Assembly (NCBI RefSeq): GCF_006345805.1
Contig: NC_043021.1
Span: forward strand, 13,516,001 to 13,580,000
Origin: Octopus sinensis
Lineage: Eukaryota
Direction: 5' to 3'
DNA: 64,000 nt
Shown here: in pieces, positions 1,547 through 50,955 of the stretch
Numbering within the stretch: the first letter of the stretch is position 1
Layout: each line of letters begins with the position of its first letter
Made by a program: the position numbers and the translations under genes
Notes under the pieces: generated by a model
What the model was told of the DNA's origin: nothing
What the model saw: only the letters and a program-made list of their open reading frames with translations
Database searches by the model: none

Positions 1547-2262
1547 GTTTAATGTCCGTTTTCCGTGCTAGCACGGGTTGGACGGTTCGACCAGGGTCTG
1601 GGAAGCCTGGGGCTGCACCAGGCTCCAGTCTGATCTGGCAGTGTTTCTACAGCTGGATACCCTTCCTAATGCCAACCGCTCCGCAAGTGTAGTGGGTGCT
1701 TTTTTACGTGCCACCTGCACAGGTGCCAGGGGAGTCTGGCATCGGCCATGATCGGTTGGTGCTTTTAACATGCCACCGGCACGGAAGCCAGCCAAGGCGG
1801 CGCTGGCATCGGCCACGTTCAGATGGCGCTTTTTATGTGCCACTGGCACAGAAGCTAGTCGAGGCAGTACTGGCAACAGCCACATTCGAATGGAGCTTTT
1901 TATGTGCCACCGGCACAGAAGCCAGTCGAGGCAGTACTGGCAACGGCCACGTTCGGATGGAGCTTTTTATGTGCCACCGGCACAGAAGCCACTCAAGGCG
2001 GCACTGGCAACGGCCACATTCGGATAGGAAAAAAACCAATGGGACACAACACTTGGTTTTCTTTCCTTTCGTTCTTTTTCCATATCCATTTACCTTTTGT
2101 TTTTCTTTCCGCATTTTCTCATTCCACCTTTTGTATTCACCTTCTTCTTGCTTTTTCTCATGTTTTCTCATAGACCAGAATCCTTTCGAAGTTTTCAAAT
2201 AAGACCAGCCGTGTTGAGCATTCGAGTCTGAGGGTCTGCTTGGAGATGCAATGCATGACATC
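1385..2262. repeat. Fold-back element with ~130-bp inverted arms, interrupted by a SINE
   Basis: 1385-1518 is the diverged reverse complement of 2121-2262. Confidence 0.75.
1518..2025 (-). mobile_element. SINE family C ((GAT)n tail, internal ~61-bp tandem repeats). Other copies near 15135-15460, 17420-17745, 22170-22450, 27770-27915, 28920-29055, 34580-34800, 36325-36482, 53185-53390 and 59660-59820
   Basis: Shared block tggttggcgttaggaagggcatccagctgtagaaac...ccatgctagcatggaaaacggacgttaaacgatgatga, plus repeated gtgccaccggcac...gttcggatggagctttttat units. Confidence 0.8.
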
Positions 2263-4940
2263 ATATGATCACATGACTGACCAGGCTATCAGATGTTGGT
2301 CTCCAGTTCGCTGAGCTGTAGAAATGAGTTGCAACATCACTGGTGCCCAAGCTGTATCAGCCTTTGCCTTTCTCTTGGATAACATCAGTGGCATGGAAAG
2401 GTGAGGCTGGTATGCATGGGTGATTACTGGGTTTCCACAAAACAACCTCGCCTGACTTGTGCCTCGGAGGGCTAATCCCATGATCGTTCATGACCGAAGG
2501 GGGTCTTAACCCTTTTGATATATACTAGTCTGTGTATCATATTTAAAGCAGATATATTGTTGAAAGCCTAATTAACTGAGGCATTCAGTCTGAGATTGTA
2601 TCTCATATTGAAGCACAATATTAAAAACATGCATAAGTATATTAGTAGAAGACAAAATCGTCCAGTAGCAAGGGCGACATTACTAAAAATGCATTTCTGC
2701 TTCTTTGGGCTTCATCAGTGACAAGTATCCACTGGAAATTGCATGCTAAGACTAAATCTACTGTTACTGATATAAGACAACAGTGACTGAAAAATCACTG
2801 ATGCTGCAAGCAGCCAACAGGTAGAATATTGATTCATTTAGGGTTTTTTTTTTATTATTATTTATAAGTTGAGGTTTTCATTCTCTTTGCTATCCCAAAT
2901 TTAAAGAAAGAAAATTAACTTTTCTGCCCCAAGAGGAGCAGGGAGGAGGAGGAGGGAAGAAGGCAGAGGACGAGGATGGGGAAAAGAGGGGGTGGAGAAA
3001 GAGAGGAAGAGGCAGAGGAGAAGGAGGAGGAGAGGTTGCAAAGAACTAAGGAAAGATCAGAGCTCCGTTGAAATACCACAAACTTTCTGAATGAGCATGC
3101 AAAGGTGAACAAGAGAGAGAGAGATAGACAGACAGACAGACAGACAGACGGACAGATGGACAGACAGACAGGCAGGCAGACAGACTGAAAGAAAGAAAGA
3201 AAGAACTGTTATTGTGTTTGCATTGGAACAGTGTGTTCTTTGTTTGCCTTTTGTTTTATTATTCATTGTCCTTTTTTATCAAACAAATCTGTTTTCTTTT
3301 TTTAAATTTTCTTTGAGGAATTTCTCTACACCTGAAATTAAAACTAAGAAATTGGTTAAATAAATAAATTTTACAAAATAAATAGATCAAAGAGTCCCTT
3401 CCCTCTCCGAAAGAAAAGAGCCAATGACCGGACGAACCAATTGTGATGTAGCAAGTTGATGAAGAAATGAAACCATTTAGATTCTTGGTACAATTGCTTA
3501 ATTAATTAATTACTTAAATAGCGGTTGTGGTGGGGGGTGAGGGGTGGAACTTACATTTTTTTTTGTTTTTTGCTGTTGTTTTTTTTGTTGTTTTTTATGG
3601 TGTGAGTGTGAGTGAAGGTCAACAACAACGCCACAAAATAGGCAGCAAAGTTGACTTGAATGACTCCCTTCCGTGCCCCTGCCCCACCACTCACACACGC
3701 AACCACCACCACCACCCCAGTTCCACCACCACCACCACCACCCTTCACTCCTGTGTCTTGGAATGGAAAACGAAAAGGTGGTGGCGGCGGCAGCAGTGGT
3801 GGGTGGGGGTAGAGGTGTTGGGATGGGGGTGGGGGGTTAGAGGTGTTGGTGGTTTTGGTAGCGCTGGTGGTGGTGGTGGTGGTGGTGGTGGTGATGGTTT
3901 CAGAGTTGTTAGCTGAAGTGGAGGGATTTGATTAGGAAGGTCGTTGGAGGATGGGAATGGATGATAGAGGTGAAGTGAGGTGTGGGTGGGGTTGGGGGGT
4001 GAAGGTTTTTGCGGGGGAGGTGGGGGTCAAGTATCTGAAATTGGTTTCAATCAATGAAGATGCAGAATTAAAATGTTTTAAGACGATTCCACATTGAACT
4101 TGGTTGTCTTCTGACTCAGTGAATTGTTGAATAATGCAGAAAGAAGGAAGAGAAAAGCAGGGGTGGGGGTGGGGTTAAAGAGAGACATACAGACAGACAG
4201 AAAGAAAGAGAATGAAAGAGAGAGAGGAAGGGAAAAGATGAAGAGAGAGACAAGAAGAAAGAGAGAGAGAGGGGCAGAAAAAGGGAAAGAAATTAAGGGA
4301 GACACAGATAGAAAAAGACAGACAGGTAGAGAGGAAGAGAGAGAGAAAAAGAAGACGAGAAAGACAGAGTGAAACAAAAGGAGAGACAGACAGACAGAAA
4401 GAGAGAGTGACAGGTAGAGAGAAAGTGAGAAAGACAGGTAGACAGAAATAGAAGGAGAGAGAGAAAGACAGGGAGAGATAGAGATTGATAGAGACAGAGA
4501 AAAAGAAACAGAAAGAGAGGAAGAGAGAGAAAAAGAGAGAAAATGGGAGAAAAAGAAAGAGTACAAGAAGTGCAATAGAGAGAGAGAGAGAAAGAGAGAG
4601 TGAGAAAAGAGTGGAGTAAGATCAGGGGAAAAAATGTGAAAGAAAGTAATTCCTTCATTTAAATGAGGTTAATTTTGTTAATTAATCAATTTAGAAAGAA
4701 TGAATTTTAAACTTACGTATGGTTAGTGTATTGCTAAGTTTATTTCTGCTTTTGTATTGTTTTTTTTTAATTGTATTTCTGTGTGAATGTGTGTGTGGTG
4801 TGTGTGTGTACAGATGTGCATGTGTGCATGTGTGTATTGCATGCATTTTTACATCTGTGTGAGTTTGCTGAAGTATGTCTGCTCCATGTATTCCATATGA
4901 GTTTTAGGTGCAAATTTCTGTGTACGTGTGTTTATGTGTA

Positions 4941-4981
<41 letters not shown>

Positions 4982-6429
4982 TGTGTGAGCATGCAAGAAA
5001 GTACTGGAGTCGATTTGTTTAACTAAACCCTTCAAAGCAGTGCCCCAGCCTGGCCGTAGTCGAATGACAGAAGCAAGGACTCTAAGTAAGAGAGATATGT
5101 CCTCACAATATTTGGAAGTCTGTGTGAGAAGTAAAAATCCTTCTTGAACTCTTCTCCTGATATGTATATCAAACCAATGGAAAATATGACCTCATAAACT
5201 TGAAAGCAAAACAAAAATAAAGGTGAGAGACAAGTATAATAATTAATGGAAAGGATAGAGGAACAGACATGAATAAACTCATTTCATCAGCCAACTTTTA
5301 TCCAGAGTCTTTACAGTTTCAGCACTTGGAAAAAGTTGGTATCTCTCATCTGGAAAACATCTAGGTTCAAACAAAATGAAATGAAGATAAGTCTTATGGC
5401 TAAAAGCATACAGAGTGTTATAAAAAGAAAAAAAATGAAGAAAAAATGTCAAGTCTTTTCTAAGGAAAACAAACAGAACAGACTTAAGAAAGGTGCAACA
5501 AAGAAGAACAAGTGGATATAGAGTATAAACAAAGGTGTCTTGCAACTTTTGGGTAGATATAACTTGGACAGAATGAAATATTTGATAGTCAGTGCTATTT
5601 TTGCGAGACAAAAACCGAACAGAAAGGAGTGGTGGATATAAGCAAGAGTGGGTGGCAAGGAAGGTGGAGAGTAAGAATGAGAGAGAGAGAGAGAAAGGAC
5701 AAGATAGAGCAGACAGAAAGAAAACTTGTGTGAGTCACAATGAGAGAAAACAAGTCGATTATGACGTAAAATATACTAGAAATGAAAATCAAAATAACAG
5801 TGAAAGACTTGTGCAATAATTAATAAAAAGGACTAAAAAAACATGGATGAACCCATTTCATCATCAGCCGAATTTTTGTCCAGAAGCAATATGATTTCGC
5901 CACCTCTTCTCTGTCTCCACTATCGTTTTCACATACCACCTTTGCCCTTTCTTTCTCTCTATTTCACTGTCTATTTTGCATTGATATATTGACGTCATCG
6001 TTTAATATCTGCTTTCCATGCTGGCATGGGCTGAATGGTTTGACCGAGGGCTGCGATGTTACTGTTTGTTACTAACATCGCATTTTGGCCTCACCTAGTT
6101 TTCTCTCATTGATACATACATGTATCAAATTTCTCATGATGGGTTCATTATAAGTTGATTACGCCATACCCTCTGCAACGCTACACCTACTAACTGGCAC
6201 TTCACATATAAACTTTCACCCCTGTAACACGGACCATAACCAATAAACCCACCACTAAAGTTCTATGGAAACTCAGTGTGAACTACTGCCTAAAATTATC
6301 CTTCCTGCAAAAAATTCCTCCTGAGAACGATTATATTCACCTACCCAACACTGGATGAAATAACGTGGATCTTAGAACATATTACAGGAAGTCTGTATCT
6401 TATTTCCTCTTGCTATACTCTTTACTTGG

Positions 6430-6991
6430 ATAATTCACCTTTGGAAACATGGGTGGTTCGTTCAACATCCTTAAACAACCCTTATTCAGGAATCTTTTGA
6501 GCGGGATGGGTTACTCGACCAGAAGAAAATTCTAACTGGGCCCCACCTGCAAGGTCATGAGTTGTTTATCTTGATATGAGATCACCATGTCATGCACATA
6601 TGGTTGTGATGCATGTGCCTGGTGTACCCTTATCAGACGAGTAGTCATAATGGGTATACTGGGCTTTGTATATTTTAGCCCAGTGTCACTTTGATAGCAT
6701 GCACTGCTCTCTCACTCAATAATAATAATAATAATAATAATAATAATTATTATTATTATTATTATTATTATTATAATCCTTTCTACTATAGGCATAAGGT
6801 CTAAAATTTTGGAGGAGCGGGGTCAGTCGATTACATCAACCCTCAGTGTTCAACTGGTACTTATTTTACCACCCCTGAAAGGATGTAAGGTTAAGTTGAC
6901 CACAGCGGAATTTGAACTCAGAACATAAGGATGAACAAAATGCCGCTAAGCATTTTACCTGGCATGCTAATGATTCTGCCAGCTTGCTGCC

Positions 6992-7830: not shown

Positions 7831-8321
7831 AATAATAATGATGATGATGAAGATGATGGTGATTTCTTTATTAACCACAAGGGTTTACATGAATAAAAAC
7901 ATTATGGACAGCACAGGACAAAACAAAAAAACGTGTGTGTGTATGTGTGCGAGTGTGTGTATTTGTGAGGGTTTTGCATGTAAACAAGACTCATAAAATT
8001 AATAAAATGATGATGATGATGATGAATAAAATGTCAAATGTTTTGGTGCACGACTTTTGGCCCAGCCTGCATATACATTTGCACACATAATTATGTTGTT
8101 TTGTTCTTCCCCTATCTCTCCCCCATCTTCCCCTTTTCACAACTCTGCCCCCTCTCTCTTCTTTTACTCCCTGTCTCTCTTCCTCTCCTTCCTTCTTTCT
8201 TTGTTTTTCTTCAGAGTTTTTTTTTTCTTTTCACACTTCCCTCCTTACTTATTTCCTTTCCCTCTTCTCTCTCGATTACAACAACTGTAGTAAGGCTGTT
8301 GACATGAAGTAATACAGCATG

Positions 8322-36541: not shown

Positions 36542-37122
36542 ATATATAGGCTTATGGCTTAGTGGTTAGGGCGTTGCATTCATGATTATAAGATTATGAG
36601 TTCGATTCGGGGATCAGAAAATGTGTTGTGCTCTTGAGCAAAACATTTCAATACTCATTGCTCCAGTCCACTTGGCTGACAAAAGCGAGGAATTTTTTGG
36701 ACAGACGGGACTGGGTTGAATATATACGAGATGGTATCAAACATTCCCGCACTAGTTCTGTCGTGCGCCAACAGATGGCAGCACACGGTTACGTGTGCTG
36801 TGAGAGCTTACAGTGACCTTCATGAGGCAGTGTGCCGAGTGGGATTGCTGTGTTTACTTGAAAGTTGTGAAATTTGTGTCTTTGCGGACACGTGTATGAT
36901 GTAGTCTGTGATTTTGCCATGGTCATGAAGTGGCTGCGTGATAAGTAGCTTGCTTACCAAACACATGGTTCCGGATTCATTCCCACTGCGTGGCAAGTGT
37001 CTTCTACTATAGCTTCAGGCCGACCAAAGCCTTGTGAGAGGATTTGGTAGATGGAAACTGAAAGAAGCCTGTCGTATATATATATATATATATGTATGTA
37101 TGTGTGTATATATATATACATA

Positions 37123-37659
37123 TATCACATCACCGACTCCTTCACCTACACTTCTTCCAATATCATCAATTGCATCACCTGCTCTCACTGCCATTCTCTG
37201 TACATCAGACAAATGGGACGCCGCTTGGCTGACTGGTTCACGGAACACCTCCGAGACATCTGCCTCGGCAATGACACCCCGTTCTCACGCCATTTCCGCT
37301 CTACCGGTCACTCTTTGCAACACCTGTCTGTGTTCGGATTGTCATTGCACAGAGGCCATCCAGACTCCCGTTTGCACCGTGAACAGGGATTGATCTTCTC
37401 TCTTCGCTCCTTTGTGCCATGTGGGCTCAACTCTCCTCCTCCCTCCCACCCACCTCTCTTCTATTGCTCCGACTCCTACTTCTCTTCACCCCTACTCTCT
37501 TCTCATACCCACCTCCCCCTTCCCCGTCAACCCTCCCCCATAAGCCCACCCCACCCCTACACATTCCTATTCCACCTTCCCATCCCATCCCTTACACCCT
37601 CTCCTACATACTCCACCTCTACCCCCACCCTCTGCCTTTCCCTGTTAACCTTTCTCTGA
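37123..37659 (+). mobile_element. Penelope-like element (Neptune type) GIY-YIG endonuclease fragment, decayed
   Basis: FTYTSSNIINCITCSHCHSLYIRQMGRRLADWFTEHLRDI...SRHF...HSLQHL...RLHREQGLIFSL...PCGLN: GIY..CxxC..YIG, R..EH, RE and GLN motifs, followed by a pyrimidine-rich tail. Confidence 0.85.
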
Positions 37660-44211: not shown

Positions 44212-44607
44212 CAGCCAAATCTCTTAAAATCACACCCTTCTATCTTGAAAGAATAAGAGTAGGGACAACAAAAAAGATGGGATAATCACGGGAAAATTCT
44301 TCGAACATATATGTGCTCGATCGCATTGTTCGTTATAGCAGTACCCCAGATACACAAGTTAATACACCTAATTTACTCAAAGCCGGTCTCTTTAAGGCAA
44401 CCTTGCCTCCAGCCAAATCTCTTAAAATCACAACCTTCTATCTTGAAAGAATAAGAGTAGGGACAACAAAAAAGATGGGATAATCACGGGAAAATTCTTC
44501 GAACATATATGTGCTCGATCGCATTGTTCGTTATAGCAGTACCCCAGATACACAAGTTAATACACCTAATTTACTTAAAGCCGGTCTCTTTAAGGCAATC
44601 TTGCCCC
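44212..44607. repeat. Direct tandem duplication, unit 198 bp
   Basis: cagccaaatctcttaaaatcac at 44212 and 44410; a few substitutions between copies. Confidence 0.9.
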
Positions 44608-45182: not shown

Positions 45183-46223
45183 TTACATTTTACGCTTGTA
45201 TATTTTTTTAGCAAACGTAAGAAATATTTCTTTCGGTAAATGCGAACATTTCTCAATTTTCTCCAGTAAAAGTTTGTAACTTTCTTCTTCGTACTTCAAG
45301 AAAAGTTCATCAAGCTTAAGTTCCTTGTATAGCGATTTCACACACTGGATCTTGTGGGGACAGTCGCATCCATAGTTTCGTTCCAAGACAGTCTTTTGTT
45401 CGTCGGACACTAAGGACAGGGCTTGCACAACCAACCAGCTACACTTACCGTCTTCGATGTCGGTCCCGATCTTCCCCGTTACGGAGGGATCTCCAAAACA
45501 ATCCAAGTAGTCGTCCTGGATTTGGAAGTATTCCCCCATCTGTAATAGAATATCCTTGGCTTCGTTATGGATTTCCTGTTCTTTGATGCCAGCCATGTAC
45601 ATGGCCAGCCCAACGGGTAGGTAAAAAGAATAAAAAGCAGTTTTGAATTTGACAATTTTCTTATATTTTTCTAGACTGAATTTCTCAAACTCTATCTTGC
45701 CATCAGGCGGAACGATGACCAAATCAAGCATTTGACCCATGACGGTCTTTGAGGTTATCGAATGAAATAACTCCAACAGTTCGACATAATAAGGCTTGCT
45801 GCGGAAATATTTCCTCAGTAAAGTATAAATCGACATTTCGAGGAAAAATGAATCGTTAATGGCAATTTTCCCGATGTTTTCCACCCGATACCAGCATGGC
45901 TTGCCTCTACGCGTGACGGAATTGTCCATAATATCGTCTGCGACTAGAAAGAAAGCCTGAAGCCACTCGATGCACCAACCTAAAATCCGAGCCAGGCGAA
46001 GATCGTCTTCGGAAACTTGTCCATTCATTAAACCTGTGTAGGCCGCCGGAACTGTTGTGCCTCGATTCTTTTTGCCGAAAGGAACATTATATGAACACAC
46101 TTCTCTCACTCTTTCCAGCAAATCGTCACCTTCAAATTGGTTTTTCCATTCTGTGCTAATATCTTCTAAAAGCACAGGAAACAACTCGTCGAACTTTTCA
46201 ATATCCGATAAATTTGCACTCAT
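45183..46223 (-). CDS. FDPS: Farnesyl diphosphate synthase (trans-prenyltransferase), 346 aa, single coding exon
   Basis: GKKNRG, first aspartate-rich motif QAFFLVADDIMD + RRGKPCW, GQMLD, KTAFYSF, second motif FQIQDDYLD, GKIGTDIEDGKCSWL and basic C-terminus KIYKRK. The FF upstream of the first DDxxD indicates C15 product specificity. Confidence 0.97.
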   Translation of the reverse strand: MSANLSDIEKFDELFPVLLEDISTEWKNQFEGDDLLERVREVCSYNVPFGKKNRGTTVPAAYTGLMNGQVSEDDLRLARILGWCIEWLQAFFLVADDIMDNSVTRRGKPCWYRVENIGKIAINDSFFLEMSIYTLLRKYFRSKPYYVELLELFHSITSKTVMGQMLDLVIVPPDGKIEFEKFSLEKYKKIVKFKTAFYSFYLPVGLAMYMAGIKEQEIHNEAKDILLQMGEYFQIQDDYLDCFGDPSVTGKIGTDIEDGKCSWLVVQALSLVSDEQKTVLERNYGCDCPHKIQCVKSLYKELKLDELFLKYEEESYKLLLEKIEKCSHLPKEIFLTFAKKIYKRKM

Positions 46224-46771
46224 AATTCCAGAGTGATTCCTGTAGATCTTAAATCAAGGTGGACACGTGTAGTGACTCCGTGAGAAACTTCTTCGGTTTT
46301 CCGCTTGTTTTTTTCAAGTCATATACTTATATATTCATACTATTCATGTATAAACTGTCGACAAGGATAAGTGCTTTACAACAATTAAGCTGGTAAGTAA
46401 ATCACACGATACAGCTTCACGGTGACTGGTGATCATGAAGGTGTAACCAAGTTGATGTATACCAAGTTTTTGAAGGCTTCTGTTGCTACTTCAGAAGTCA
46501 CGTGCCCGGTTATTTGCGAGATTATCGCCGTCGGCCAACCAGTTCTCGTCCGTTGCCAAGGATACGGTACAATAAACTTAATGGTGACTGCTGTTCGTTA
46601 CGACAGCTCCCCGACTGATACGCCTTGTCGTCACTTAACTGTTTTATGGCCAAATGACGACTTCATAAATTATTGCTGTTGTTGTTGTTATTGTTTGGAC
46701 CAACATTTCTCGGAAAAAGAAACAAATATATAAGCAAACCCACCACACAAGCAACTCTCACTCCTTCTGCC

Positions 46772-48813: not shown

Positions 48814-48819
<6 letters not shown>

Positions 48820-48962
48820 GAAATAATTTTATTCTCAAACGCAAGATAATTCTAATAATATAGCAAACTACCCATTTTTCTGCAAAATATGGTTACTTTA
48901 TCCTGTCCTTGTTATATTATTAGCATTATCCTGCATCTGAGAATAAGATTATTTCCTTATCT
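48814..48962. repeat. Fold-back element
   Basis: ataaaggaaataattttattctcaaacgcaagataat / attatcctgcatctgagaataagattatttccttat. Confidence 0.7.
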
Positions 48963-49031
48963 TTCAACACATCTCAACAGTTCTAAAGTAAACTTTGTTT
49001 ACTTTCTTCATAATTTGAAATATATATATTA

Positions 49032-49500
49032 CAGAGATGTACTTGCATAGCAAGTGACCTGATAAGAGATCATGTGCTGAAACAAAAACAATTACCGCAT
49101 GGAAGGTGTTTATAAACCATTTAAAAACACGCAAAAATCGTTAGATTCACTTCAACATTTAAATTTAATTTGCCAAAATATTTTCGTTGCTTTCAGACTG
49201 CGACCAGTTCACTGACAAAAGCACTGATGAGGCATGTGATTTTGTCAGTGAACAGGTTGCGGTCTCAAAGCGATGAAAATATTTTGGCAATTTAAATTTT
49301 GAAGTGAATCTAACGGTTTTTATGTGTTTTTAAATGGGTTATAAACAACTTCCACGCACTGATGAGGCATGTGATTTTGTCAGTGAACAGGTTGCGGTCT
49401 CAAAGCGATGAAAATATTTTGGCAATTTAAATTTTGAAGTGAATCTAACGGTTTTTATGTGTTTTTAAATGGGTTATAAACAACTTCCACACTGCAATTG
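49032..49500. mobile_element. Fold-back element with one inverted and two tandem (135-bp) hammerhead-bearing units
   Basis: The left arm (to 49220) is the diverged reverse complement of the right arm; 49221-49355 is repeated at 49356-49490. Confidence 0.8.
49241..49290 (+). ncRNA. Type I hammerhead-like motif with G3-C8 swapped core; copies at 49376-49425 (+) and 49169-49219 (-)
   Basis: TTTGTCA-GTGAACA-G-GTTGC ggtctcaaa GCGAT-GAA-AATATT-T-TGGCAA. Confidence 0.6.
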
Positions 49501-49585
49501 TATATATATATATATATATAAAACAAATTAAAAGGGAGGCTTATAATCAATTTGAACCTAAAAGCAAATTTAAAGGAGGTCACAA

Positions 49586-50014
49586 AAGTGACAGAAGGTA
49601 CTGACCAGCATCAGCTATTGCTAGAAACAAGAGTTAAAACGACTCAAAAGCCACAAGAGCACTGTCTTAATGACTGACAAAGGGAGGTAAGTCCCTAGCG
49701 TTTATAGATCGAATGATTTCGGATTTTGATGTAGACCATCTTAATCCTCGTCAGTGACTCTTAACACCTAGGGTTAAATTTAACAACCTCTGTTGGTCTT
49801 ATATAAGAAAACCGTTGAAAATGCTGAATTTTAAATGGTAAAAGACAGACAAAGGTAGTTAAGTTTAACTCTAGGCATTAAGAGTCGCTGACAAAGATTA
49901 AGATGGTCTCCATCAAAATCTGAACTCGTTGGATCTGACTATAAATGCAAGGGACTTACCAACCTTTGTCAGTCATTTCTTGTGGCTGGTGCTGGTCAGT
50001 ACCCTCCATCACTT
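49586..50014. mobile_element. Fold-back element with a hammerhead in each arm (49706-49759 minus; 49883-49940 plus)
   Basis: Consensus of the two arms: AGTCA-CTGACGA-GGATT..AATCC-GAA-ATCG tt CGAT-C-TGACT. Confidence 0.7.
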
Positions 50015-50023
50015 ATATATATA

Positions 50024-50955
50024 TGTGCGTTCACATTCCTGTCTTCTACCAAGAAATCTAATGCTTACAGCTTAGTTTTTTTCTTGGGGCTGGCCGAGTT
50101 GGAGCAAATATCAGAATTGAACAGCCGAAATTTGCTATGATGATTCGGTGTCTGACTGAAGATTGAAGGCTTCGAATGATTTGTCTGTGTTCCGTGTTCG
50201 TCCCTTCCTGTATTTCACGTTCATTATATATAAAAACATTCATTCTTATATTATTGCGGCGTTACGTGCACCCCCCCGTTTGTTTGTCCAATTTTAAACC
50301 CTGCACGACTTCTATACACACTGTCTTTTACTACCCGCCATTGCTTCTTCACCAAACTTTTTGGCGCCCTCCGATTCTTCCCCTCTCTTCCTCCCCTCTT
50401 CCTCCCATCCTCCTTAATCCCTTCTTTCTCCTTTTCTCTTGGTCACTGATTCTGTCCCCTGCCTTCCAGCCTCTTTGATTCCCTCTCTCTCTGTCTCTCT
50501 TTTTCTCTCTCTCCTGCGACCTGCTGCTTCTTAAACCATTCTGTTGGCCTTCGTATCTCGACCAACATGTGTCCCCGCTACCGAAACGGTAATTATTTCT
50601 ACGCCAGCTATGTTGTTGTTGTGTTTTTGTCTCATTTGGTCTAAAGTCGTATGACAACCATCGTTATATATGTTTTGTTTATTCATTACTGTTTTCAATT
50701 TCGTTTTCGTCTCTTGTATTCACATCCGTCTTGTGCGTTCACATTCCTGTCTTCTACCAGAAATCTAATGCTTACAGCTTAGTTTTTTTCTTGGGGCTGG
50801 CCGAGTTGGAGCAAATATCAGAATTGAACAGCCGAAATTGCTATGATGATTCGGTGTCTGACTGAAGATTGAAGGCTTCGAATGATTTGTCTGTGTTCCG
50901 TGTTCGTCCCTTCCTGTATTTCACGTTCATTATATATAAAAACATTCATTCTTAT
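50024..50955 (+). mobile_element. Element with ~225-bp terminal direct repeats (pseudo-LTR-like, possibly Penelope-related); diverged relative at ~53530-53910
   Basis: 50024-50250 is repeated at 50732-50955 around a pyrimidine-rich interior; no TG..CA ends or PBS recognised. Confidence 0.55.

What the first reader, a model, noticed from the sequence alone, without database searches (positions are those of the whole stretch)
49169..49490. G3-C8 swapped hammerheads in a 135-nt tandem, retrozyme-like unit
Seen: consensus TTTGTCA-GTGAACA-G-GTCGC..GCGAC-GAA-AATATT-T-TGGCAAA in three copies, two in tandem 135 nt apart and one inverted. Known: C3 and G8 form a tertiary pair and the double swap G3/C8 restores activity; tandem minimal hammerheads with palindromic stem III fold as dimers and release unit-length RNAs that circularise (non-LTR retrozymes). 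Standard CUGANGA searches would miss this motif. Caveats: the cleavage triplet is UUU, the inverted copy has U at position 9, and the two tandem units look identical so could be an assembly duplicate.
Basis: partly seen in the sequence, partly recalled or inferred. Interest (0 to 1): 0.75.

Follow-up and report, generated by a model that had tools for sequence, protein, structure and literature searches.

The report
Swapped-core hammerhead in Penelope retrotransposon leader
This is a decayed copy of the front end of an abundant jumping gene whose RNA carries a hammerhead motif with two paired core letters swapped (G-C for C-G); intact copies elsewhere likely cut themselves slowly, while the 135-base doubling here is likely a late local duplication or assembly error, not a circular-RNA element.

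Summary
The three motifs are real, but this is not a retrozyme. The locus is a head-to-head insertion of the 5' end of a coding Penelope-like element (PLE). The family has at least 4,901 arms, and L191 shows arm, ORF, 3' UTR and arm again. G3-C8 is the family's master state (91 of the first 100 of 1,440 listed). Sister PLE families keep U3-A8 or C3-G8 with covarying stems, so the fold is under selection. Intact copies are predicted to fold; the window's copies are not. The two 135-nt units share 12 private changes, so the duplication came long after insertion; it could not be checked in reads. Short copies start 16 nt before the ribozyme, with an untemplated G in 34 of 55, likely a copied cap. 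Only 4 of 128 arms start near the cut site, so templates were mostly uncut. Cleavage is untested. I found no natural G3-C8 in print, but Lünse 2017 was unavailable. This scan reported the same swap several times before, on other DNA of this genome.

The parts
49029..49220 (-). Left arm: copy of the PLE 5' end with the long 3' end (includes the ~60-nt 'tail', which is the start of the ORF); begins at stem I; 7% from subfamily majority
49029..49087 (-). 'Tail' between the two fixed 3' ends of the family (reference positions ~150 and ~208); present on one arm only, as in typical PLE insertions
   Evidence: compare
49169..49219 (-). Inverted hammerhead motif, decayed (A9 to U, one stem II pair broken); fails the descriptor and is predicted not to fold
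49221..49224 (.). Junction bases (GCAC) between the two arms
49225..49355 (+). Right arm, unit 1: starts at the family's main 5' boundary (inferred RNA start); 9% from subfamily majority
49241..49290 (+). Hammerhead motif 1: stem I 49241-47 with 49285-90, G3 49248, C8 49253, A9 49254, extra G 49255, stem II 49256-60 with 49270-74, GAA 49275-77, palindrome AAUAUU 49278-83, U17 49284 (predicted cut after it)
49334..49357 (+). Remnant of the ORF start (ATG at 49334); in the full-length copy L191 this reads on into the long ORF
49356..49490 (+). Right arm, unit 2: exact 135-nt duplicate, sharing 12 private substitutions and a 6-nt deletion with unit 1; late duplication or assembly error
   Evidence: not testable in contigs
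49376..49425 (+). Hammerhead motif 2 (G3 49383, U17 49419), identical to motif 1
49491..49500 (+). Short 3' end of the right arm (first fixed end of the family)
49501..49520 (.). TA microsatellite flank (a second TA run lies at 49018-49029); 82 of 128 sampled arms end at a TA run

Best explanation
The locus is a decayed two-armed insertion of the 5' end of a protein-coding Penelope-like retrotransposon whose leader carries a minimal type I hammerhead with a natural G3-C8 core, likely a slow, partner- or protein-assisted self-cleaver in intact copies and predicted dead here. SHOWN: the motif lies about 50 nt before the AUG of an ORF with RT and endonuclease motifs, and again after the ~1 kb 3' UTR. 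Arms have two fixed 3' ends inside the ORF start and mostly end at TA runs. G3-C8 is the master state of old and young subfamilies. Sister families hold U3-A8 or C3-G8. INFERRED: (1) A capped RNA starts at the A of CTC|AGATG, 16 nt before stem I. (2) The element's RT primes on nicked AT-rich DNA at either of two internal sites just inside the ORF start, as shown for Anolis PAc. When it uses the copy of those sites near the RNA 5' end, it runs through the uncut hammerhead and off the cap. This gives the thousands of ~145- and ~205-nt arms with an extra G; two such events give the head-to-head pair. (3) Helix III would form between two AAUAUU palindromes (dimer) or with help from the protein, and cleavage after UUU would remove a ~60-nt capped leader. 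(4) The 135-nt repeat arose at DNA level after the copy had decayed, or in assembly.
For: Coding parent: L191 has an arm at 3543-3748 running into an ORF at 3657, the endonuclease part ending at 6868, and a second arm at 7904-8050. 25 of the 30 best endonuclease loci have the arm downstream on the same strand; 21 of these 25 pass the scan with G3-C8, 1 has A3-U8 and 3 fail. Abundance: 378 exact 48-mers, 1,440 and 4,901 pattern hits, controls 0. Between-family covariation: among the first 100 of 9,398 non-G3 hits (control 63), the GTTGC-stem family has U3-A8 in 53 of 56 and the GTCAC-stem group has C3-G8 in 35 of 43 (hand count). Two of these families sit behind ORFs 49-56% identical to this one. 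On 10 chosen copies the 3-8 pair is Watson-Crick in 10 of 10 in three forms, and 2 of 5 stem II pairs change on both sides; the covariation score is 0.52 against at most 0.15 for slid controls. Old and young subfamilies differ at about 10 places around the motif, 5 of them in loop II, and at none of the 42 core, stem and helix III positions (P about 0.03 by my arithmetic). 40 of 183 arms carry a stem I change that keeps pairing (U-A to U-G). Intact copies fold with stems I and II (11 of 12 pairs above 0.9 in L191). The extra base between 9 and 10.1, G10.1-C11.1 and the palindromic helix III are the published min-HHR hallmarks (PMC4209133). C3G/G8C partly rescues the PAc PLE hammerhead, which needs protein, and PAc inserts uncut RNA from two internal starts (PMC11167929). 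5' ends: 66 of 128 arms reach positions 1-10 (11 of them continue into the UTR) and 4 begin at 58-68. The base before AGATG is G in 34 of 55 short copies and 0 of 45 UTR-containing copies (hand count of the first 100 of 1,697; script check on 30 of them gave 12 of 19 and 0 of 11; background G 17%).
Against: No cleavage data exist and no RNA data were obtained. There is no pile-up of 5' ends at the predicted cut site, which fits slow cleavage but equally none. The engineered swap rescues only partly. A very young sister subfamily has C at position 9 (17 of 43 rows; 25 of 25 top copies), and family B has a 3-bp stem I, which hints at relaxed catalytic constraint. The AAUAUU duplex is only -0.2 kcal/mol. 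Rfam finds no hammerhead in the window or in six intact loci. Pfam and PDB gave no RT or endonuclease hit for the ORF, so that assignment rests on motifs read by eye (recalled) and on UniRef names of homologues. The covariation set is small, hand-picked and related, and family B's stem I is out of register in the alignment. The inferred start site also looks like a splice acceptor (CTAAC, pyrimidines, YAG). 9 of the 34 G cases could come from the facing arm; without them it is 25 of 46. All listed-row tallies come from contig C1 only.
Confidence: 0.68

Rival explanations
1. Same PLE leader, but the motif is a catalytically dead or near-dead hammerhead fold, kept for structure: protein binding, packaging, or control of translation or transcription.
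For: Templates were mostly uncut. A9 is replaced by C in a very young sister subfamily. PAc inserts without needing cleavage, and no RNA-seq ends were seen at its cut site. Published min-HHRs are weak in vitro.
Against: Position 3 and position 8 change together and stay Watson-Crick in three forms; this pair forms in the active-site fold. U4, G5, A6, G12, A13, A14 and A15.1 are invariant in the 10 aligned copies.
Confidence: 0.22
2. One reading: a non-LTR retrozyme, in which tandem 135-nt units fold as a dimer, release monomers and circularise.
For: Two head-to-tail motifs with palindromic helix III. A 25-unit, ~127-nt array of the same motif exists at G000:C27. Retrozymes are proposed to derive from PLE pLTRs (bioRxiv 2026.07.22.740005).
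Against: The units share all 12 private changes while being 9% from the family majority. The dimer or two-monomer folds are -14 to -16 kcal/mol against -58 for the misfold, and with the left arm the stems have probability 0. Tandems are rare: 1 of 81 loci. In the C27 array, 21 of 25 units share a change that breaks stem I, and the array sits inside one two-armed insertion, which points to DNA-level expansion. Published retrozyme monomers are 150-450 bp and use canonical type I motifs.
Confidence: 0.05
3. The fixed 5' boundary is a spliceosomal 3' splice site rather than a transcription start, so short copies come from spliced RNA.
For: Full-length copies have a branch-point-like CTAAC, a pyrimidine tract and CAG or TAG right at the boundary. 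The D. virilis Penelope intron ends at its hammerhead.
Against: Short copies share no upstream exon sequence, only a single G. Both arms keep the AG. The two 3' UTRs checked have no GAG|GT donor, and their AG|GT sites would give C, not G, before AG. The two readings are not exclusive: read-through transcripts could still splice here.
Confidence: 0.15
4. The hammerhead likeness is chance in a palindromic MITE-like repeat.
For: No Rfam match; individual copies show no compensatory changes.
Against: It is linked to a PLE-type ORF, and a fully canonical CUGANGA version with the same extra G and stem II occurs in sister families. Stems covary.
Confidence: 0.02

Closest known systems
Minimal type I hammerheads (min-HHR) in pLTRs of metazoan PLEs (Cervera and de la Peña 2014, PMC4209133; text parts 1-2 of 4 read, one of two supplement files searched)
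   Same: Extra nucleotide between 9 and 10.1, G10.1-C11.1, palindromic helix III, U17 common, location in a PLE repeat, mostly dispersed single or opposite-strand copies, and a 3-8 covariant family (U3-A8 in Schistosoma).
   Different: The core pair is G3-C8, which is not mentioned in the parts read. Helix III has 6 nt and stem I has 7 bp. Three pairings coexist in one clade of one genome.
PAc (Poseidon of Anolis carolinensis; Frangieh et al. 2024, PMC11167929; text parts 1-2 of 4 read)
   Same: Hammerhead at the pLTR-ORF junction; two internal RT starts inside the ORF start that define a tail; AT-rich targets; uncut RNA as template; C3G/G8C partly active as an engineered mutant.
   Different: Here G3-C8 is the wild type. 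The motif lies wholly upstream of the AUG. The ORF has a C-x3-C-x2-C linker (Neptune/Nematis type by PMC8557442 passages; no tree was built), and the tail is about 60 nt.
Metazoan non-LTR retrozymes (PMC7229834, passages; bioRxiv 10.64898/2026.07.22.740005, part 1 of 5)
   Same: Short tandem units with a type I motif can arise from this repeat (this locus; the C27 array).
   Different: The family is the end of a coding element and is dispersed as single or inverted arms. The tandems are rare and decayed, and no RNA or circles are shown.
Natural 3-8 covariants (Perreault et al. 2011, PMC3088659, passages)
   Same: A compensatory change of the 3-8 tertiary pair in nature.
   Different: The passage reports U3-A8 only.

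Membership tests
Type I hammerhead ribozyme | Core N3 U G A N N8 A9, G12 A13 A14, A15.1-U16.1, H17, with N3-N8 Watson-Crick | tested here: met
   Met as G3-C8 in the family and in the two + copies; the inverted copy has U9. The strict C3/G8 consensus is not met.
Type I hammerhead ribozyme | Stems I and II form and covary | tested here: met
   Predicted in intact copies and covarying across families; not predicted in the window's copies.
Type I hammerhead ribozyme | Stable helix III | tested here: inconclusive
   The palindrome AAUAUU can pair only between two motifs, at -0.2 kcal/mol.
Type I hammerhead ribozyme | Site-specific self-cleavage | not testable with these tools
   Indirect only: no excess of insertion 5' ends at the cut site, 4 of 128.
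Type I hammerhead ribozyme | Match to an Rfam hammerhead model | tested here: not met
   No hammerhead among the 150 listed of 180 window matches or in six intact loci at E<=0.001. Those six include canonical-core sister copies, so the test is insensitive to this minimal class.
PLE min-HHR | Extra nucleotide between 9 and 10.1; G10.1-C11.1; palindromic 15.2-16.2 and loop 3 | tested here: met
   against the list; the window's + copies have decayed to G10.1-U11.1.
Penelope-like elements (C-terminal endonuclease) | Single ORF with RT followed by a GIY-YIG-type endonuclease | tested here: met
   Stop-free frames of 722-1042 codons with RT and endonuclease motifs read by eye; homologues named RT-domain proteins. 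Pfam and PDB gave no RT or endonuclease hit.
Penelope-like elements (C-terminal endonuclease) | pLTR, partial tandem or inverted 5'-truncated copies, one-sided tail | tested here: met
   L191 and L133; 43 of 81 loci head-to-head; 3' ends 57 short and 70 long of 128.
Neptune or Nematis clade | CX2-5CxxC linker and RT phylogeny | tested here: inconclusive
   The linker is present; no tree against reference PLEs was built.
Non-LTR retrozyme | Family organised as tandem repeats with an intact hammerhead in each unit | tested here: not met
   1 of 81 sampled loci has adjacent same-strand hammerhead arms; window units are predicted misfolded; 21 of 25 units of the C27 array break stem I.
Non-LTR retrozyme | Non-coding, non-autonomous element | tested here: not met
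   The repeat is the terminal part of a coding element.
Non-LTR retrozyme | Unit-length linear and circular RNAs | not testable with these tools
   Only contigs were available; no raw RNA reads.

The most novel reading that the evidence does not exclude
One PLE clade has walked its hammerhead through three Watson-Crick states of the 3-8 pair (C-G, U-A, G-C), plus a C9 variant, to tune a slow ribozyme that sits 16 nt behind the cap. The ribozyme acts as a timed self-decapping switch between translating and packaging the element's mRNA. The thousands of short insertions with a copied cap G are a fossil record showing that only uncut RNA is retrotransposed. This would be the first natural, genome-wide G3-C8 hammerhead and a direct handle on the open question of what PLE hammerheads do.
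Probability: 0.25. Interest if true: 0.72.

Novelty: new variant of a known kind. Interest (0 to 1): 0.46.

Why it matters
Descriptor searches for CUGANGA or UUGANAA miss this family, which has thousands of copies here, so ribozyme counts in animal genomes, and statements that some PLEs lack hammerheads, are probably too low. A natural G3-C8 core next to U3-A8 and C3-G8 sisters gives a ready allelic series for testing how much catalysis PLEs need. The mapped RNA start, cut site, AUG and two RT starts within about 200 nt make the role of PLE hammerheads testable with one short transcript. This particular locus is an ordinary dead copy.

Tried and rejected
Rfam: only microsatellite and hairpin noise, no hammerhead. 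Covariation among individual copies: none, 1 unpaired double change in 1,440; this is uninformative because copies decay neutrally. Reads: no RNA holder listed on record. Laying contigs was swamped by other copies. At 100% identity, no contig of four runs covered the duplication junction, but none covered the locus-specific arm junction either, so there is no verdict on whether the duplication is real. The CTGATGAG at 49223-49230 and a CTGA..GAAA stretch in the tail are not hammerheads; they did not pass the scan. The endonuclease-like remnant at 37051-37659 (Pfam none) has thousands of relatives; I did not link it to this element. A Pfam family I recalled for PLE proteins is not in the library. 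Splice donors that could supply the extra G were not found. Out-of-register microhomology (CACTG) would give a 133-nt period, not 135. The duplication has 0 or 2 nt of microhomology depending on the boundary; with the latter the units differ by one CpG change. Literature: searches found G3-C8 only as an engineered mutant. Lünse et al. 2017 (small PLE hammerhead variants) and Przybilski and Hammann 2007 are not held, and I saw only their titles in reference lists; one supplement file of PMC4209133 could not be searched. Any of these may already show a natural G3-C8.

Full report
Observation. The motif occurs three times in the window, against 0.01 expected. Two copies lie in an exact 135-nt tandem. 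A descriptor that allows any Watson-Crick 3-8 pair finds only these two in 64 kb; shuffles give 0.2 hits. The quoted stem II is in none of the three copies: the + copies have two wobble pairs, including G10.1-U11.1, and the inverted copy has U9 and a broken pair. The real unit is larger than the finding. It is a left arm (49029-49220, minus strand) and a right arm (49225-49500) facing head to head between TA runs, and it folds as one long hairpin.

Family. The repeat is abundant in G000, an octopus-like genome (best named protein relative from Octopus vulgaris). There are 378 exact 48-mers, 1,440 hits of a 35-place pattern open at core positions 3, 7 and 8, and 4,901 hits of a downstream 27-mer; all controls were 0. 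By hand count of the first 100 rows, position 3 is G in 99, position 8 is C in 92, and both hold in 91. Only 1 of 1,440 changes both positions, and it is unpaired. I then took loci chosen by the downstream 27-mer, not by the hammerhead (L062-L147, covering the 100 listed hits apart from one held earlier as L034; duplicates removed). Of 81 loci with arms, 43 are head-to-head and 38 single, and only L146 has adjacent same-strand hammerhead arms. Of 128 arms, 57 end at the short 3' site, 70 at the long one and 1 elsewhere, and 82 end at a TA run.

Coding parent. Eleven of these arms continue upstream into a shared microsatellite-rich sequence, which in L133 leads to the end of an endonuclease-type frame. 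Using that protein as query, 25 of the 30 best loci carry the arm about 1 kb downstream on the same strand. L191 holds the whole element: arm, ORF starting at the ATG that is also in every arm, RT, one frameshift, endonuclease, 3' UTR and arm again. The RT and endonuclease motifs were read by eye from recalled patterns. Pfam and PDB gave no such hit; homologues carry RT-domain names. A C-x3-C-x2-C linker fits the Neptune/Nematis type (PMC8557442 passages), but I built no tree. Inverted truncated copies, a one-sided tail and TA targets are standard PLE features. In Anolis PAc, two internal RT starts inside the ORF define the tail (PMC11167929, parts 1-2 of 4).

Is the hammerhead real? The extra base after A9, G10.1-C11.1 and the palindromic helix III match the published min-HHR class (PMC4209133), and U17 appears in several rows of its supplement. 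Old and young subfamilies (mean divergence 4.5% and 1.5%) differ at about 10 places, half of them in loop II, and at none of the 42 core, stem and helix III positions. That set of 183 arms is partly selected on the motif. Sister elements with 49-56% protein identity carry a motif downstream of their ORF with U3-A8 or C3-G8. A search that excludes G3 gave 9,398 hits against 63 in the control. In the first 100 rows, 53 of 56 GTTGC-stem copies are U3-A8, 35 of 43 GTCAC-stem copies are C3-G8 (17 of the 43 have C9), and 1 row is a decayed copy of this family (hand count). One GTCAC-stem family with C17 was not linked to an ORF. On 10 hand-picked copies the 3-8 pair is Watson-Crick in all 10, in three forms, and slid controls score far lower; relatedness inflates the shuffle test, and family B's stem I is misaligned. 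The engineered C3G/G8C swap is partly active in general (PMC8495972 passage) and in PAc, where cleavage needs the protein. Against: the C9 variant is very young and abundant, helix III is marginal, and Rfam sees none of these motifs.

This locus. The arms are 7-9% from their subfamily majority. Intact copies fold with stems I and II; all three window copies have pair probabilities near 0, alone, and the two + copies also in context. The two units share all 12 private substitutions and a deletion that the left arm lacks. The duplication therefore followed decay and is not a product of the original insertion. Contigs could not tell a real duplication from an assembly error. The one long array found (25 units at G000:C27) lies inside a single two-armed insertion, and 21 units share a stem-breaking change. 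The retrozyme reading is not supported.

5' ends and mechanism. 66 of 128 arms reach the first 10 reference positions and only 4 begin within positions 58-68, where the cut is predicted; that is no more than the background of random truncation. In the first 100 of 1,697 hits, the base before AGATG is G in 34 of 55 short copies (C 12, A 5, T 4) and in none of 45 copies that keep the upstream UTR (a script check on 30 agrees; background 17%). No shared sequence lies further upstream. An untemplated 5' G is read as a copied cap in L1 insertions (PMC9341517 passages), and D. virilis Penelope has an internal promoter (PMC2377424 passages). I infer a capped RNA starting 16 nt before stem I. RT priming at the two internal sites near the RNA 5' end would then run off the cap and leave ~145- and ~205-nt stubs with the ribozyme uncut. 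The same boundary also looks like a splice acceptor, which I keep as a rival. Cleavage, if it happens, would drop the capped ~60-nt leader; that role is inferred only.

Novelty. Perreault 2011 reports natural U3-A8, and so does Cervera 2014. Searches found G3-C8 only as an engineered mutant. Lünse 2017, Przybilski 2007 and one supplement file were out of reach and may bear on this. Earlier notes of this scan describe the same swap in this genome several times. They are unchecked AI notes; I tested the main points independently, and none of the excerpts shown mentions the 5' G. Verdict: a new variant of a known kind, real at family level and predicted dead at this locus.

Noticed in passing
window 49669-49977: A second fold-back repeat right beside the finding (77% self-complementary over about 310 nt). 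It carries a decayed hammerhead with a canonical CUGACGA core on the minus strand near 49730-49760 and a more decayed inverted copy near 49880-49940; probably another PLE end.
   Followed up: partly
window 45183-46253 (-): Intact, intronless 356-codon frame for a polyprenyl (farnesyl diphosphate-type) synthase, Pfam PF00348, E 3e-78; it lies about 2.8 kb from the insertion.
   Followed up: partly
window 37051-37659 (+): Remnant of an endonuclease-like frame resembling the PLE GIY-YIG type (read by eye; no Pfam hit), with 8,644 candidate relatives in the genome.
   Followed up: partly
L313 (G000:C27:13556000-13565900), about 1700-5080: Array of 25 hammerhead-bearing units of 124-129 nt inside one two-armed insertion; 21 units share a change that breaks stem I. 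Its units end at nearly the same place as the window's duplicated unit.
   Followed up: yes
L227-L251: Very young sister PLE subfamily (40 of 40 scored copies 100% identical over 156 nt) whose hammerhead has C instead of the conserved A9; older relatives have A9.
   Followed up: partly
L175, about 3390: One copy of this family with A3-U8, a paired double transition; a single case, so it may be chance.
   Followed up: no
L191 6868-7904; L133: The element's ~1 kb 3' UTR is largely (TACA)n-type microsatellite and ends in a sequence that looks like a branch point, pyrimidine tract and YAG, exactly at the inferred RNA start.
   Followed up: partly
L014, minus strand about 2621 from its 5' end: An unrelated canonical minimal hammerhead (CUGAUGA, extra A, palindrome ACGU) next to a copy of this family.
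   Followed up: no
window 48817-48958: Small inverted repeat: 50-nt arms, 88% complementary, 42-nt spacer.
   Followed up: no
window 44212-44605; 50020-50230 with 50730-50950: Other near-identical local duplications: a 198-nt tandem at 98% and a ~210-nt stretch repeated about 710 nt apart. Late duplications or assembly duplicates are not rare in this region.
   Followed up: no
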